This document shows, piece after piece, positions 10,031 through 62,940 of a DNA stretch of 64,000 nucleotides (position 1 is its first letter; each line of letters opens with the position of its first letter). The stretch comes from Octopus vulgaris (taxonomy: Eukaryota): contig OX597823.1 of NCBI GenBank assembly GCA_951406725.2, positions 43,462,001-43,526,000 on the forward strand, written 5' to 3'. A program made the position numbers and the translations under genes. Under the pieces are notes generated by a model. The model did not search any database, was not told where the DNA came from, and worked only from the letters and a program-made list of their open reading frames with translations.

Positions 10031-11559
10031 ATCTACTAAAATCACACAAGTGACTTCATAATATTAGATATTTGTTGTTTCATTCAGTAGTAAACAATCA
10101 CTTCCTGTGGTGGTTACTTAATTTACATCGTTGTGGTCATTGATAGAGAAGTATGTTGTCCACAAATACAACAAATCGCTGGTGACATGATACTACAAAC
10201 CATTAATCGCTCAACTGGTTGTGTAGAACCCTATTGATTGAGTCATCAGGATTCGTGTTACTGCTACTGCTAATACTATTTTGTTGTCGGTTAGTGTTAT
10301 TGCTTCCACAAATGCAATCGCTTTTACAATTGCTTTTGTTTCAATTCCTTATAGCAATATTGAATACTTATTTTGGCCTAATGCCACATATCTGTAAGAG
10401 AGAACTATAGAACATGTCTGGGAAATATATATCGACTCCTAGTCGGATAAAAAGACAATCAAAGTCAATTCCACTGGGATTTGACCCTAGAACACAGAGC
10501 CCAAATTAAAAGTCTGTTGCTTTTGTTCAGATTGTTGTTGCTATTTTCTTGGTGTAATTGTTGCTGTTTATGATGTTACTAATACCAAAATTAAACCTGA
10601 TCGAATAGATTTGATCATTCGAGCTGTAGCATGTCAGAGAAGCAAACAAAAAGCCGTGTAATATTTGTTCCGGTTCTTTACGTTCTGAGTTCATATCTTG
10701 CCGAGCTCATTTTCACTATTCATCCTTCCGATGTCGATAAGATAAAGAACCAGCCTAGGACGGATGAGGATAGCGTTGGTCGAAATATATGATCAAAAGT
10801 GATCCAACTTTCGCCTTTCAGTATTTTGTTTATAAGTCATGGTGTGTCTATAAATCTCTATCAGTCAAAGTGAACTTCTTTTTTTTATCTAAAACGATAG
10901 ATTGAAATATAATGGAGATTTGTATGTCATTTTCTCCAGAAGGATAGGTGATGTCTTAAATTTTTTCCCAATTCTGTTGTAAGAAATTCAGGATCGTGCA
11001 CCACCGTTTCTCCAAACACAGCAAATAAAATTCCAGTAACCAACTTTATTCCTGTTACGGAATTTTGGTTACATCAGTAAAGAACTTTTGGCTGATATGT
11101 TACCGTTCCTGACACTGGTGTTGGTGGATGATGTACTCATTTATATCATTGCTTCTATAATAGCTAACATTTCTACTGATGATCAATCGAAGAGAAATTC
11201 CTATACGGTATTTCTCTATTGACTTAGCCTAACTAGAAATAGCAGCCAAATTTTTCCCCCAAAGTCGAACCCACAGTTTCTGAAACAAGGAAGAATAAAA
11301 TTGGTAATGTAATCCTAAATATAACTGAAAATAAATTGGCAATGTCACGTGTCAAACATGTTGCTTTTGAATCAGTTCGGTGAGGACATGTGTGAAATTA
11401 TATCTCAGCAAAAATTACATCTGACGGACCCTATTGTTGTGAATTACCAGTACCTATAGTACAACTTCATTACAATCTCTGCCATCACAACTAACTATTA
11501 TTACAAAAGCACTGCCCTTACAATCACTGTTTCACTACTAACCTCGTTAATTTTTACCA

Positions 11560-29581: not shown

Positions 29582-30166
29582 TTTTCTACTCTAGAAACAA
29601 GGCTCGAAATTTTGGGGGAGGGGACCAGTCGATTAGATCGACCCCAGCACGCAACAGATACTTAATTTATCGACCCCGAAAGGATGAAAGGCAAAGTTGA
29701 CCTCGGAGGAATTTGAACTCACAATGTAAAGACAAACGAAATACCGATTTCTTTACTACCCACAAGAGGCTAAACATAGAGTGGACAAACAAGGACATAG
29801 AAAGGGATTAAGTCGATTACAACGACCTCAGTGAGTAACTGGTACTTAATTTATCGACCCCGAAAGGATGAAAGGCAAAGTTGACCTCGCAGGAATTTGA
29901 AATCACAACGTAACGGCAGGCGAAATACCTATTTCTATTTCTTTACTACCCACAAAGGGTTAAACACAGAGGACAAACAAGGACAGACAAACGGATTAAC
30001 TCGATTATATCGACCCCAGTGCGTAACTGGTACTTAATTTATCGACCCCGAAAGGATGAAAGGCTAAGTTGACCTGGGCGAAATTTGAACTCAGAACGTA
30101 GCGGCAAACGAAATACCGCAAAGCATTTCGCCCGGCGTGCTAACGTTTCTGCCAGCTCGCCGCCTT
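29582..30166 (-). mobile_element. Nested/tandem SINE family A array; two units carry a Tx1-like tail
   Basis: Three cores (TTTATCGACCCCGAAAGGATGAAAGGC); only the rightmost keeps a complete head; junctions near 29746 and 29929. Confidence 0.9.
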
Positions 30167-53274: not shown

Positions 53275-54360
53275 TATTATAAAAATAGGATCACATGCGG
53301 TCGTATCGTGTAGGAGACACGGTCGCACGTGGTCATATTCTTAATGAAATATTACTGACCATATAATACATACAGCGGCAATAGAACACAAGTGGAATGA
53401 CAACAAGATTTCTTTTTGAGATATATACATTATTTATTTCACATATTTTACAATCATGCTGATGTTGGAAGTTTGTAAGTGTTAGCATGTTTTTGTGTCC
53501 GTGTGTTCGTGAGAGCGACAGAGCAAATCAGGTGAATGTGATTGACATAGAAAAGTTAGTAGCAGATGGCTTAAAGTAGTTCTTAGAAGAACTAGAACTC
53601 AAGACAGATAATTGATTTACCGTTTATGAGGTACACGGAGTGTAAGAGTTCTATACCAAGACGTTGCGTCTCGAAGTTGAGATTAATTGAATCACTTGTG
53701 TTTATCTTTCTCTTGATATGAATATTCTTTCAGATATATTTACTGTAGCCGTTTTTCCCGTGGTGAGATTTTCACCTAACCGCTAGAGTTGAATCCGTAG
53801 TTGTCTTGTGTACAAATTAAATCTTCGTAGACAAAGACGACGTTGGCGATGACGTCGTGTCTGTCGCTTGGTTTTTGGAGCGTCTTCATTATATGTTCTG
53901 CTTGGTTATTTTTCTCTTGATATAATGGTGGTCGCCTGCCTTTCGAACTGGAACATGGTCGAGTATGCTCTGTGTGGTCAGAGGTTTAGTACTGAGAAGG
54001 ACTAGAACCCAAAGAAGAACTCTGTGGTCAGAGGTTAGCCCTGAGAAGGACTGTAACCTAAGACGAACTCTGTGGTCAGAGGTTTAGCTCTGAAAAGAAC
54101 TAAAAACCTAAGACCAAAGGTGTTTGAAAACACTCCTTTATATATTGTTTGGGTGGCTCAAGCGAACTTCAGAAATGGAAAGCTGTGATTGGCTGCTTGG
54201 AACAAATGGCGCGAAAATAAGCGGAGGCAAATCGCGTCACGTGACAACCAGGGGTGCGAACGTAGTAGAGACCACTCGTGTCACATGTCAATCAGTGGCG
54301 CAAAAATAGGTAGAGACAAATCGCATCACATGTCAACCAATCGGATTAGTGTTTACAACA
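53275..54360 (-). mobile_element. Probable solo LTR (~1.09 kb)
   Basis: Minus strand starts TGTTGTAAA and ends TTTATAATA (imperfect terminal IR); flanks ATGG/ATGT; CCAAT, then TATATAAAG, then AATAAA in LTR order; three ~48-bp tandem repeats. Confidence 0.6.
54135..54345 (-). promoter_or_regulatory. Pol II promoter-like cluster in the putative U3
   Basis: TATA 54135-54144, CCAAT 54187-54192, E2F-type GGCGCGAAAA 54208-54217, palindromic GTCACGTGAC 54236-54245, two TCACATGTCA motifs. Confidence 0.55.
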
Positions 54361-57841: not shown

Positions 57842-58849
57842 CAGATAGATAGATAGATTTGTAAATAACAAAAAACATTTATTTTATTTTTTTAGTTATT
57901 CAATGATTTGATCTGTAATTACAGTTGTAATCGTCGCAGTTATTTTCGTAAAAAAATTAACCAAGAAAAAAAAAAGAGTAGAATAAGAGAGAAGGGGGTG
58001 GCGTGTCGGTAATTGCTTCTGAGGAAGCCACGTGATATTCAAATATCATGGCAGCCGATAATATTGACAAGCAACAAGAAGCTAACAGGAAACCGCTATA
58101 TTAGGTTTTAATGGATTCCTTTTTGCTTAACGGAATCTTACAACTCTTGCATATACTTTTGAATAAACCATCGGATTACACAAACAATGTAGGACATATG
58201 AAGATGGGTTTGTATGGTGTAGCGAGGTATGCTTTGGTGTAGTGTTCTTCTTTTAGTAGTCGTGTACTTCGCATTTTCCTTAATTGTAATGCACCGGATA
58301 GATTTGCTACAAACTCTCTTCTTTCTTTCTAAGCAAATACTGCTCACACATTGAAGAATATGATGCTTGATTAAAATGTTATTCCAGTAATATTAACCCT
58401 GTTTATAGATTTGCTCTAAATTCTCATCGCTGCTCGTCGTACTTTTAATTGAGAAAGAACTAGTTTTTTACTTACTGACTGACTGACTGACTGACTGCTT
58501 GACAGTGATTGACATATATTTGTTGCTATTAATATTTAAGTAGAATTCTTCGTGTTTTTATTATTATTATTCCAAGTTGAGCTTCGTCAGAGTCAACTTT
58601 GCCTTCTGTCATTCAGATATTTCATAGCTAACATTATGCGCCAGTTAAATGCTGAATAGATATAGTTATTTTTAATGTACGGTTAGTATCGGACAAAATG
58701 CCCTCTCGTGTTTGTTCCGGCTCATTACATCCTCAGTTCAAATAACGCAGCAGTCAACCTTATTCTTTCATCCTTTCGAGGTCAATAAGATATGGTATAA
58801 ATTAAATCGTCTAAACGCTCTTCTTCTGAAACATTTTTGATGATGCTTT

Positions 58850-59812
58850 GATTTATGTTCGCACCACTTTTTTGCTATGTCAAGTCCATACTTGGTGCAT
58901 TATCATGACGTCTCTTATATTCTTTATGGGCTAGTGACGTACATTGACTGGTACATTGACGTACATTGACATACAGTTTCACCATTTTGCCCACAAATTC
59001 TCCACATATCAGTTTCTGATGTGTTGTCTATTCTGTATTTGATGTAATTTGTTCTTAATGCTTGCTATTGGGCAGCACAATTTAGAGCCTCCGTTTCCGG
59101 TTTTAAATCACTTTTAGTCATCCACAACCATCTTTTTTTCTCTGTCTGTCTTGTCAACATCCCTATGAAATTATCCATGCATTCTTTTCTTTATCCACCT
59201 ATTTTCAGTTTCATTCATTCTCAAGTGTTTGTACTGTGCTTTATCTATGCAATCTTCTATCCTACACAAGACTGACCTTTTTACATCCAATAATAGCGGT
59301 TCTGTGGTATTTTTTATATACCATGCTATGTTGTTTTCTTCTGCTCTGATGCTGTGTTCGCATCCAATCAGTCCTCTTCCTCTTTTTTCTCGTGGTACAT
59401 ACAGTGTGTCTATGTCACTTTTTGAGTGGAGTATCCCATATCTAGTCAGCAACTTCTTTCCCTTTTTGTCTAAACTGTTTAGTTCGTCTACTGTCCACGA
59501 GGTTACCCCTACTCCATATCTAAAGCGTAAAACCGTCCATGGGTTTGTAGCTTCAATCTTATTCTGTCCGTTTACTTTCGACTTAAGGGTCAGTTTCAGT
59601 CTGCGCAAGTACTCCACCTTACATTCTTCTGTCATTTCTTTCTCCATCAATTTATCCATTTCCAATATCCCCAAGTACTTATAGTCCATCTCTTCTATCT
59701 GCTTCATAACCTCCCCCGATGGTATTGCTAGCCCGCCCATACATTTGATTTTGCCTCCCTTCAAGACTAACACATCACACTTTTTCAGTCCGATCTCCAT
59801 TCTCCATTCTGA
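58850..59812 (-). mobile_element. R4/Dong-clade non-LTR retrotransposon fragment (late RT, thumb, decayed CCHC)
   Basis: MEIGLKKC...YKYLGILE...EYLRRLKLTLKSKVNGQNKIEATN...LYVPREKRGRGLIG; the 5' truncation point abuts (TAA)n. Confidence 0.85.
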
Positions 59813-59912
59813 GAATATTATTGCTATTATTATTGTTATTATTATTGTTGTTGTTGTTGTTGTTATTATTATTATTATTATTAGTACTATATTTTTTTTT
59901 ACTATTATTATT

Positions 59913-60377
59913 GAGTAAGAGAGCAGTGCATGCCATCAAAGTGACACTGGGGTAAAATATACGAAGCCCAATATATCCATTATGAATATCCATCTGATAA
60001 GGATACACCAGACACGTACATCACAAACATATGTGCACGACATGGTGACCTCGTATAAAAATAATCAGTGCATGAACTTGCAGGTGGGATCCAGTTATAG
60101 TTCTTTTCAGGTCGAGTAGACCATCCCGCACAAAAGGTCCCTGAATCAGCGATATTTAAGGATGTTGAAACACCCATATATCCAAAAGTGAATTATCCAA
60201 ATCCAAAAGAATTCCTCTCAACGCATCGCTATGATGCTCCCTCACTACATCTGCACGTAATCAGAGATGCACATATCGTCAGCCACAAAGGGACATGCTC
60301 AACTGCTTAAGGTCAAACAACTGACAAGCAAATATGTGGTATTGAGCAGGATATTTGTTGTAGCCCATCTTTTACAC

Positions 60378-60379
<2 letters not shown>
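59913..60379 (-). mobile_element. ~470-bp non-coding retroposon-like element, copy 1, bounded by (TAA)n
   Basis: Colinear end to end with copy 2; both ends run into TTA repeats; no conserved ORF. Confidence 0.85.
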
Positions 60380-60452
<73 letters not shown>

Positions 60453-60477
60453 CATCATTATTATTATTATTATTATT

Positions 60478-60948
60478 GAGTGAGAGAGCAGTGCATGGCA
60501 TCAAAGTGACACTGCTGTAAAATATACGAAGCCCAGTATACCCATCGTGACTACCCGTCTGATAACGGTACACTAGGCACATGCATAACAAACATATGTG
60601 CACGACATGGTGATCTCATATCAAGATAAACAGCACATGACCTTGCAAGTGGGACCTAATCAGAATTTTCTTCTGGTCGAGTAACCCATCCTGCTCAAAA
60701 GGTCCCTGAATAAAGGTTGTTTAAGGATGTTGAACGAAACATCCATGTTTCCAGAGGTGAATTATTCAAACCCCAAAGAATTCCTCTCAACACATGGCTA
60801 TGATGTTCCCACACTACTTCTGCCCGTGATCAAAGATGCACATATCGTCAGCCACTAAGAGACATACTCAACTGCTTAAGGTCAAACAACTGACAAGCAA
60901 ATATGTGGTATTGAGCAGGATATTTGTTGTAGCCCATCTTGTACACCA
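60478..60948 (-). mobile_element. ~470-bp non-coding retroposon-like element, copy 2, bounded by (TAA)n
   Basis: Same termini as copy 1 (plus strand GAGT.AGAGAGCAGTGCATG ... GTAGCCCATCTT.TACACCA). Confidence 0.85.
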
Positions 60949-60951
60949 TTA

Positions 60952-61000
<49 letters not shown>

Positions 61001-61566
61001 CATTACCTCTGCCTAAGTGAAGGCGGAGGTATTGTGTTCAGTCGTATTTGTTTGTTTATCGGTGGACAAGGTATCGCAAAAAATGCTGGGTGAATTCCGA
61101 TAAAACTTTCATGGATGTTTGGCCTGATGTTTGGCCTGCCATGGTGTCGTTAGATTGTGGGATCGATTCGGTACCGAACATGGATTCTGGATTATTTTTT
61201 TATATTTTCTCTACTTTATATGCATATGTAAAGTTTCACATAGTTATCCTGTACCTGCACACATACACACATATACTCACACATTTTCAGCGTTGAATAT
61301 TGCCAACTCATTTCCATTGTACACACACATACACGCATGCAAACATAGATCTCTTTTACACACGCATATACTCACACTTCAAACGCCGTTTATCGGCTTT
61401 TTCACTCCTTCGCCCTTTCTCATTCACACGACGCTGTCTTTGCCACTTCGTTTCGTCTTTCTCATTGTCATTACTTTTTTTCCCTCCCTCTCAGTCATGG
61501 CTATTACTCTCACTAATTCTCCACCACTGTATTGGCATTTAATCTCCTTTCACTTTACTTCTCATG

Positions 61567-61606
<40 letters not shown>

Positions 61607-61770
61607 ATTATTTGTCCGTTTCAGAGCGATCGGGATCATTTTTAGTATTCTTGTTTTTGAGAGCAATCCATTTTATTTCAGATATTCTTATTTTAAAGAT
61701 CATCTCCAGTTAATTCTTGAGAGGATGTTGGTGTTGCGTTGGCGGAAGCTTGCACTCTCCGAGTGATTTG
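61001..61770 (+). mobile_element. Helentron-type non-autonomous element (HINE/DINE-like)
   Basis: Terminal hairpin ACCTCTGCCT-AAGTGA-AGGCGGAGGT, short TTTG repeat, far end TTGGCGGAAGCTTGCACTCTCCGAGTG as a subterminal inverted copy. Confidence 0.65.
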
Positions 61771-62940
61771 TTATTATTATTATCATTTCTTATTTATCAC
61801 AGGTTCTGTTGGAACTCCTGGAGCCTTGCATACATAGCGGGCTTGCTGCCTGCAGCATACGGTACCATGGCATCCGTTCTTTTCAACTATCTAATACTTC
61901 CCTAATTATATAAGGAGGCAAACTTTTTGCAACAGCTCTACTGGGTACTCCGTACTGGGTATTCCGATTTCTTTTATATTCCTCTTGATGCTTTCTAATA
62001 CTGTCCCCAAGAAGCCATAAATAATTGGCACTATCTTCACCTTCTTCCTTTTCCAGAGCCAGGCTATATCGTACTTAAGAGGGTTGCATTGATCTATTTT
62101 TTCACCTTCCTTCTTGAGTGTTGGTGGATCAAAGGGGTATGCAACATCAGCTATATAGAACATGTGGTGCATCTTGTCAACTACCACTAGGTCCGGTCTG
62201 TTACGCTCTAGCACCTGATCTGTTTGGATTGGGAAGTTCTCGAGTCCGCCACTCATTACGGTTTGTGCTCATACCACGTCTTGCCTCTCTCTAGTCCCCA
62301 CTTTTCGTACGGTTTCCAATGTAGAACTTTCGCTACCTTATCATGTCGCCACAACTTGTAGTGGTTTGGAGCAATTCTAGGGTATTCGCTCGTGATATGG
62401 GCAATGGCTTCATCCACTCTATTACAGATGCGGCACAGTGGAGAAACTTTCTCATTCCTAAGGTTGACTCGCCAATTTGTTGCCAAAGCTTAATCTTGCA
62501 CCTCCAGAATAGGGCTCTCGGTCTCTTTTTTCGGTGGTCCTCTCTGCAGCCAATCCCACATAGGTTTTCAAGCAACTTCTGTTGTGGCTACATGGGATTG
62601 ACTGTGTAGTCCCTTTTTGTGTAATGCTTCCTCATGTCCTTTTTGTACTTCTTCCTTTCTTTTTCCAAACTCTCCATTCTTAACTGACACTAGCAAGGTT
62701 TCCTTATTTTTGGACAGGGATTTCATTAAGCTTTCAAGTTTGATATGTACACAGTCTTCCACGCTTATCAGTTCCCTTCCTCCATTTGCTCTCTCCATGT
62801 ATACGCGATCAGTGTCTGCATGTGGATGGTGGGCTCCATGCATCGTTAGGAGCTTTCTTGTCTTCCTGTCCATCTCCTTTAGCTCCCCCTCTCTCCACTT
62901 TAGGATTCCAGCGCCATACCGAACTACTGTGACTGAGCTT
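61771..62940 (-). mobile_element. R4/Dong-clade retrotransposon 3' portion with CCHC, restriction-like endonuclease and (TAA)n tail
   Basis: YGAGILKW..ELKEMDRKTRKLLT, CRICNRVDEAIAHITS, RHDKVA, RPDLVVVDK...IADVAYPFD...EKID...VKIVPII; the 3'UTR ends in TAA repeats near 61771-61785. Confidence 0.9.

What the first reader, a model, noticed from the sequence alone, without database searches (positions are those of the whole stretch)
59817..61000. Tandem ~470-bp non-coding retroposon in (TAA)n, between two R4/Dong fragments
Seen: two diverged copies with identical termini, in the same orientation, each bounded by TAA repeats. I see no clear pol III A/B boxes, no TIRs and no conserved ORF. R4/Dong fragments on both sides (58850-59812, 61771-62940) have the same orientation and also abut TAA. 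Established: Dong-type R4 elements target (TAA)n. Inference: a non-autonomous, microsatellite-targeted partner of a restriction-like-endonuclease retrotransposon, comparable to R2 SIDEs. Its 3' end does not visibly match the Dong 3'UTR here, so the partner may be another family.
Basis: partly seen in the sequence, partly recalled or inferred. Interest (0 to 1): 0.7.

Follow-up and report, generated by a model that had tools for sequence, protein, structure and literature searches.

The report
Truncated octopus retroposon pair in TAA
Two neighbouring copies of a very abundant octopus-type repeat sit in a TAA microsatellite, where the enzyme of a TAA-seeking Dong retrotransposon likely pasted them; both are shorter than other copies of the family and their matching short ends likely arose by one copy overwriting the other, so this is a fairly ordinary pile-up of a repeat family whose true start is still unseen.

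Summary
The pair is real: copies at 59913-60379 and 60478-60948 are 85% identical, face the same way, lie in (TAA)n, and show no TIR, tRNA, Rfam or ribozyme match. The family is very abundant (61,950 and 28,857 contigs in two DNA runs) and also occurs in Octopus bimaculoides. It is not a 470-bp unit with fixed ends. Of 5 outside copies readable across the 5' junction, none ends where the window copies do: 3 run on (at least 69 nt, about 86 nt by inference), 1 meets ATT repeats slightly earlier, and 1 belongs to a sister family sharing a ~165-nt core. The identical 5' ends are not independent: in the 5' 83 nt the two copies share 4 of 4 minority bases, against 2 of 22 elsewhere, which points to local conversion. 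The 3' end is in register against TAA in 3 of 3 readable copies. Best reading: 5'-truncated copies of a likely non-autonomous retroposon of about 555 nt or more, moved by Dong/R4 machinery (0.55). The long 3'UTR of an unseen autonomous Dong family is not excluded (0.3). No sequence link to a partner LINE was found.

The parts
58846..59812 (-). Left R4/Dong-like fragment: end of RT region to the CCHC zinc knuckle, one frameshift; 5'-truncated against TAA, 3' end (endonuclease and UTR) missing
59816..59912 (.). Degenerate (TAA)n tract at the 3' end of copy A
   Evidence: TRF
59913..60379 (-). Copy A, 467 bp, 5'-truncated; strand inferred from fixed end versus variable end
60298..60379 (-). 5' segment of A homogenised with B (1 mismatch in 83 nt)
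60380..60477 (.). (TAA)n spacer between the copies, 33 units
   Evidence: TRF
60478..60948 (-). Copy B, 471 bp, 5'-truncated
60478..60620 (-). 3' region predicted to fold (z about -3 in B, not in A)
60762..60926 (-). Core of about 165 nt that appears shared with a sister repeat family having different sequence on both sides
   Evidence: loose ends at 60762 (246 RNA reads; 114, 104 and 10 contigs) and 60926 (226 RNA reads); P0030 follows the 60926 branch
60867..60948 (-). 5' segment of B homogenised with A; carries four minority bases (60875, 60903, 60919, 60927) shared by both copies
60949..61003 (.). (TAA)n tract at the 5' junction of copy B
   Evidence: TRF
61004..61770 (.). Unrelated 765-bp element inserted in the same TAA tract; 11-bp inverted arms at its left end
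   Evidence: not classified by any search
61771..62936 (-). Right R4/Dong-like fragment: CCHC knuckle, PD-type endonuclease region, 3'UTR of about 120 nt and short TAA tail (61771-61787); 5'-truncated
   Evidence: tblastn 37-41% to P0001/P0003/P0004; weak zf-RVT hit below Pfam's cut-off

Best explanation
The two copies are shortened members of a very abundant octopus repeat family, likely a non-autonomous retroposon of about 555 nt or more, that were likely written into a TAA microsatellite by target-primed reverse transcription with the protein of a Dong/R4 retrotransposon, and whose matching 5' ends likely result from later gene conversion or unequal crossover between the neighbours. Shown: the pair, the TAA tracts, the high abundance, longer copies elsewhere, the allele mosaic, and a sister family sharing a core. 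Inferred: the strand (fixed end taken as 3'); that a Dong protein nicks TAA DNA, binds a structured 3' end and often stops early; that each insertion renews a TAA landing site; that the full-length element has its own 5' end about 86 nt beyond 60948; and that A and B inserted separately.
For: Abundance: 61,950 of 40.6 million, 28,857 of 28.6 million and 3,486 of 1.72 million contigs, and 8,315 of 12.9 million RNA reads, lie on copy B. 3' end in register with TAA in A, B and the diverged copy P0029, 3 of 3 readable. 5' side: of 14 spurious ORFs retrieved, 5 read across the junction; 3 continue with non-repeat sequence, 1 enters ATT repeats about two codons earlier, 1 is the sister family. TAA at two different 5' junctions fits targeted insertion better than a tail made by the element. 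Conversion: 4 of 4 against 2 of 22 shared minority bases, Fisher p=0.001; 1 mismatch in 83 nt against 64 in 388; 21 of 20,000 permutations give such a window. Dong inserts in (TAA)n in most insects, molluscs and cnidarians (PMC7998251, passages) and covers 92.7 Mb in 51 families in O. vulgaris (PMC13282606 supplement). For a separate 5' end: the loose end that overlaps the extension stops in ATT and joins other sequence at one expressed locus (551 reads; translation).
Against: No partner LINE sharing the 3' end was found; the only Dong 3'UTR at hand does not match. No ribozyme, no tRNA head and no place where many RNA molecules begin or end, though the TAA flanks were masked. The 5' terminus rests on one locus and on a four-codon overlap between a protein model and a 30-letter loose end. 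The ORF read-outs are few, may be spliced, and favour copies with the extension. The reads come from runs whose species may differ from the window's. The 3' fold is not significant in copy A (z -0.25).
Confidence: 0.55

Rival explanations
1. The sequence is the long 3'UTR (555 nt or more) of an autonomous Dong/R4 family not present in the window, and the copies are ordinary 5'-truncated insertions.
For: Variable 5' ends, fixed 3' end, TAA on both sides; no promoter boxes or ribozyme in the part seen; 51 Dong-R4 families in O. vulgaris leave room for an unseen one.
Against: The one Dong 3'UTR in the window is only about 120 nt and unrelated. The extension appears to stop in ATT at one locus, and its last 30 letters show no Dong C-terminal motif in any frame (motif from P0001/P0003). 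A core shared with a family that differs on both sides is more like SINE module shuffling (PMC4758252, passages).
Confidence: 0.3
2. The family is moved by another enzyme (RTE, CR1, Tx1 or Penelope-like) and makes or prefers TAA tails, its closeness to Dong being shared use of microsatellites.
For: No sequence link to Dong; RTE (106 Mb) and Penelope-like elements (191 Mb) are as abundant in O. vulgaris; Naiad Penelope-like elements favour microsatellites (PMC8557442, passages).
Against: TAA at differently truncated 5' ends (window, P0028) fits targeted insertion; Naiads favour (TA)n and are remnants in cephalopods; no credible hammerhead.
Confidence: 0.11
3. One reading: a 470-bp unit with two fixed ends, comparable to an R2 SIDE.
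For: A and B do start at the same base.
Against: That match lies in a converted tract; 0 of 5 outside copies readable across the junction end there; no ribozyme.
Confidence: 0.04

Closest known systems
Dong (Bombyx mori) and Dong-like R4-clade elements
   Same: (TAA)n target, one orientation, fixed 3' end and variable 5' ends; two Dong-like fragments share the tract
   Different: No ORF in the part seen; no HDV-like ribozyme, which B. mori Dong has at its 5' end (PMC3774820, passages); no match to the neighbouring Dong 3'UTR
R2 SIDEs (Drosophila willistoni R2Dwi_SIDE, 529 bp)
   Same: Similar size, non-coding, would borrow a restriction-like-endonuclease LINE and its target
   Different: SIDEs carry the partner's ribozyme (64% identity) and 3'UTR (81%) and most 5' junctions are precise (PMC3414825, section 5); none of this is shown here, and this family is far more abundant and dispersed
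EhSINE1 of Entamoeba histolytica
   Same: 500-600 bp, no ORF, only limited likeness to A/B boxes, partner LINE with a restriction-like endonuclease, chimeric family members (PMC2996970, PMC2657916, passages; R4-clade placement of EhLINE is recalled)
   Different: EhSINE1 shares about 70 bp of 3' end with EhLINE1 and has ordinary target-site duplications; no shared tail is shown here and the target is a microsatellite
Central-domain SINE superfamilies (CORE, V, Ceph, Deu, Nin, MESC)
   Same: A middle block of about 165 nt appears combined with different heads and tails (known domains are 45-150 bp, PMC4758252)
   Different: No tRNA head in the part seen; the core was not compared with those domain sequences, which no tool here held

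Membership tests
R2-type SIDE | HDV-like ribozyme at the 5' end | tested here: inconclusive
   No Rfam match; my descriptor hit only internal sites of copy A, and 8 of 60 shuffles also hit; the true 5' 86 nt or more are absent from the window
R2-type SIDE | 3' end shared with the autonomous partner | tested here: not met
   No similarity to the single Dong 3'UTR available; other Dong families could not be tested
R2-type SIDE | Precise, repeated 5' junction | tested here: not met
   For the 470-bp unit: 0 of 5 readable outside copies end there; for the longer unit only one locus is seen
tRNA-derived SINE | tRNA-like head with boxes A and B | tested here: inconclusive
   No tRNA; one box-B-like word, no box A; the head of the full-length element is missing from the window
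SINE or non-autonomous retroposon in general | Short, non-coding, very many copies, fixed 3' end with simple-repeat tail | tested here: met
SINE or non-autonomous retroposon in general | Own 5' end, not a truncation of a LINE | not testable with these tools
   No genome is held; ends were masked in the read lay
SINE or non-autonomous retroposon in general | Unit-length transcript | tested here: inconclusive
   8,315 RNA reads, equal on both strands, no common start or end listed; short reads and masked flanks cannot show it
Dong/R4 clade (flanking fragments) | RT followed by CCHC knuckle and restriction-like endonuclease in one ORF | tested here: met
   Fragments align in order to single-ORF RT proteins, whose closest solved relatives are R2 proteins
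Dong/R4 clade (flanking fragments) | Placement in the R4 clade by RT phylogeny | not tested
Dong/R4 clade (flanking fragments) | Insertion in (TAA)n | tested here: met
   One junction of each fragment lies in TAA; the other junction of each is lost or not in a tract of 4 or more units
MITE or other DNA transposon | Terminal inverted repeats | tested here: not met
   None joins the two ends of A or B; the full-length 5' end was not available
Non-LTR retrozyme / Penelope-like pLTR | Type I hammerhead in each tandem unit | tested here: not met
   No Rfam hit; one loose CUGANGA...GAAA pair 103 nt apart in B, absent in A; definition from bioRxiv 10.64898/2026.07.22.740005, part 1 of 5

The most novel reading that the evidence does not exclude
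Octopus genomes carry a superfamily of Dong-dependent, TAA-targeted SINE-like elements with tens of thousands of copies, no tRNA head, and a shared central domain of about 165 nt combined with different 5' and 3' modules: a microsatellite-targeting non-autonomous partner of an animal R4-clade retrotransposon that seeds and reuses TAA tracts.
Probability: 0.35. Interest if true: 0.55.

Novelty: new member of a known kind. Interest (0 to 1): 0.3.

Why it matters
If the family has its own 5' end, it gives a very large natural set of RNAs accepted by a Dong/R4 protein, which would help define what 3' structure these enzymes recognise, and would classify part of the 250 Mb of 'unclassified SINE' in the O. 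vulgaris annotation. If it is a Dong 3'UTR it is routine. Either way the locus is a caution: matching ends of tandem copies can come from conversion, and this repeat produces spurious 'uncharacterized proteins' in the O. bimaculoides annotation.

Tried and rejected
No genome is held for the window, so no genome-wide count of junctions was possible. Pattern scans found nothing in viral contigs or prokaryote genomes; the 2 metagenome hits matched only the 20-letter pattern and are chance. Run search: no RNA holder listed on record; this says nothing on expression. Whole-element folding is not better than shuffles (z -1.0 and -1.65), nor is the shared core (z +1.3). A coding origin was rejected: mismatches are not clearly concentrated in one codon position (8/6/6 and 19/15/11) and every frame has stops. 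HDV, hammerhead and SECIS descriptors gave nothing above chance; twister and pistol were covered only by Rfam. Summed contig depth divided by typical depth suggests 5e4 to 1e5 copies, but the tool states this is no copy number, so only contig counts are used. Earlier scan notes held no look-alike sequence and nothing for this genome. Six 14-letter words of the element occur in no paper's main text. The O. vulgaris transcriptome file of PMC9115989 could not be read, two of its files were too large, and the octopus genome paper PMC4795812 is not held; these, Repbase and Dfam may already name the family.

Full report
Observation. The region holds two copies, A (59913-60379) and B (60478-60948), 85.4% identical, with no third copy in the window. 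TAA/ATT tracts lie at 59816-59912, 60379-60477 and 60948-61005. There are no terminal inverted repeats, no tRNA gene, no Rfam match at a gathering score among 12 weak hits, and stops in all six frames of both copies. The flanking fragments align on the minus strand to unnamed single-ORF RT proteins of 1,100-1,200 residues, whose nearest solved relatives are R2 proteins; the R4/Dong label is recalled from their motifs. They cover the same protein region at 30% identity, so they are two families. The left one meets TAA at its 5' truncation and lacks its 3' end; the right one ends in a 3'UTR of about 120 nt and TAA, and is separated from B by a 765-bp unrelated element.

Abundance and host. No genome is held. 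Twenty of 24 listed runs, from 10 studies and 4 organism labels, hold words of copy B. I laid 4 of these 24 runs on 60454-60975 at 80% likeness: 61,950 of 40.6 million contigs (X4), 28,857 of 28.6 million (X9), 3,486 of 1.72 million (X15) and 8,315 of 12.9 million raw RNA reads (X23). RNA depth was equal on both strands and no common start or end was listed; the TAA flanks were masked, so ends could not be read. Chance ORFs of the repeat match 14 database proteins, 13 labelled Octopus bimaculoides and 1 from an unnamed Logan contig. The family is therefore present in Octopus; the window's own species was not determined.

The identical 5' ends are not independent. A and B differ at 1 of 83 bases at the 60948 end but at 64 of 388 elsewhere; 21 of 20,000 permutations give any such window. 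One search showed 40 of 279 variant rows. In 26 of the 40 the other base is carried by at least 75% of RNA reads (my threshold); A shares B's minority base at 4 of 4 such places in 60870-60949 and at 2 of 22 in 60478-60869 (Fisher p=0.001; the boundary was chosen after seeing the data). The same four bases are minority in the three contig runs too. This mosaic is best explained by recent gene conversion or unequal crossover across the 5' junction (inference). A and B differ at two places that are polymorphic in the runs (60754, 60766), which suggests separate insertions rather than an old duplication, but this is not settled.

The family is longer and its 5' ends vary. I used the chance ORFs as read-outs across the junction. 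Of the 14, nine stop at or before it or leave early and say nothing. Of the other five, P0025, P0027 and P0047 continue with non-repeat sequence (13, 13 and 23 codons), P0028 enters a poly-Ile run (ATT repeats) about two codons earlier than the window copies, and P0030 follows another branch. None ends where A and B do. The last residues of the P0047 extension overlap, over four codons with three identical, the translation of a loose end seen in 551 RNA reads at 60896; joining them gives an extension of about 86 nt and a unit of about 555 nt or more (inference). That loose end stops in ATT and joins another piece, which hints at a terminus, at one locus only. These models may be spliced and favour copies that keep a 50-codon frame. 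At the other end, the diverged copy P0029 has its poly-Leu run five codons before the same His as copy A, so the 60478 end is in register in 3 of 3 readable copies. I take that end as 3', which puts the element on the same strand as the Dong fragments.

A sister family. Among 24 of 1,822 loose-end rows shown, two mark branches: different sequence before 60762 (246 RNA reads; 114, 104 and 10 contigs) and behind 60926 (226 RNA reads). P0030 aligns only over 60764-60931 and its tail matches the 60926 branch. A second family thus appears to share a core of about 165 nt with different sequence on both sides.

Signals looked for. Local alignment to the right fragment's 3'UTR is no better than shuffles (132-455 of 500). 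My descriptors found no box A, one box-B-like word, no SECIS, HDV-like hits only inside copy A at a rate seen in 8 of 60 shuffles, and one loose hammerhead-like pair in B only. Of 11 windows scanned per sequence, the 3' 140 nt fold at z about -3 in B and in B with majority bases substituted, but not in A; this is a modest sign of a structured 3' end.

Mechanism. Established: Dong elements encode RT and a restriction-like endonuclease and insert in (TAA)n in most insects, molluscs and cnidarians (PMC7998251, passages); Dong-R4 covers 92.7 Mb in 51 families of O. vulgaris (PMC13282606, part 1 of 3 and the supplement). Inferred: a Dong protein bound the 3' end of this RNA, nicked a TAA tract, copied from the 3' end and stopped about 86 nt or more short of the full length; each insertion left TAA on both sides, so the tract collected two Dong families, two copies of this repeat and one other element; later one copy's 5' junction overwrote the other's. 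TAA at two different 5' junctions (window, P0028) favours targeting over a tail made by the element, on two cases. Whether the RNA is a free non-autonomous element (0.55) or the long 3'UTR of an unseen Dong family (0.3) cannot be decided without a genome.

Comparison. It would work like R2 SIDEs (PMC3414825, abstract and section 5) and EhSINE1 (PMC2996970 and PMC2657916, passages), but it fails or cannot be tested on their defining features: a ribozyme as in Dong (PMC3774820, passages), a tail shared with the partner, and a precise 5' junction. A shared middle recalls central-domain SINEs (PMC4758252, passages). Penelope-like origins are less likely (PMC8557442, passages; bioRxiv 10.64898/2026.07.22.740005, part 1 of 5). 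Passages of PMC9115989, PMC8967140 and PMC6685494 mention Dong but no such partner. Nine searches listed no description of this family or of a Dong-dependent SINE; I saw most listed papers only as titles and abstract starts, and Repbase, Dfam, unreadable supplements and the 1994 and 2010 cephalopod SINE papers (seen only as references) may name it.

Verdict. A real, very abundant repeat in an ordinary TAA pile-up, like those noted by earlier agents in other genomes (unchecked). The 470-bp fixed unit does not hold. Novelty: new member of a known kind. Interest 0.3.

Noticed in passing
window 61004-61770: A 765-bp element inserted in the same TAA tract, with 11-bp inverted arms at its left end, a copy of one arm and a short hairpin near its right end, and internal CA and TA runs. 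The layout recalls Helentron-associated non-autonomous elements (HINE/DINE-1); the label is recalled, not tested.
   Followed up: partly
window 60762-60926: Branch points in reads and contigs indicate a sister repeat family that shares only this core (P0030).
   Followed up: partly
window 60495-60552 (minus strand): By eye, with majority bases the 3' hairpin has an AUGAU/UGAU pair around a 12-bp helix, as in SECIS cores, but lacks the apical AA and the internal loop; my descriptor and Rfam did not call it.
   Followed up: partly
window 29629-30117; related pieces near 58690-58790 and 10646-10744: A 188-bp unit in 2.6 tandem copies with dispersed relatives; recalled as a common octopus tRNA-derived SINE. 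One piece lies just beyond the broken 3' end of the left Dong fragment.
   Followed up: no
window 60267-60374 and 60727-60948 (+ strand frames): Chance ORFs of this repeat are annotated as at least 13 'uncharacterized proteins' of O. bimaculoides in UniRef; they are probably not genes.
   Followed up: yes
run X23 at window 60896: One strongly expressed locus (551 reads, agreement 0.98) joins the far 5' extension of the family directly to a piece of the element, suggesting an internal tandem duplication.
   Followed up: partly
window 53973-54114: A 49-bp unit in 2.9 tandem copies.
   Followed up: no
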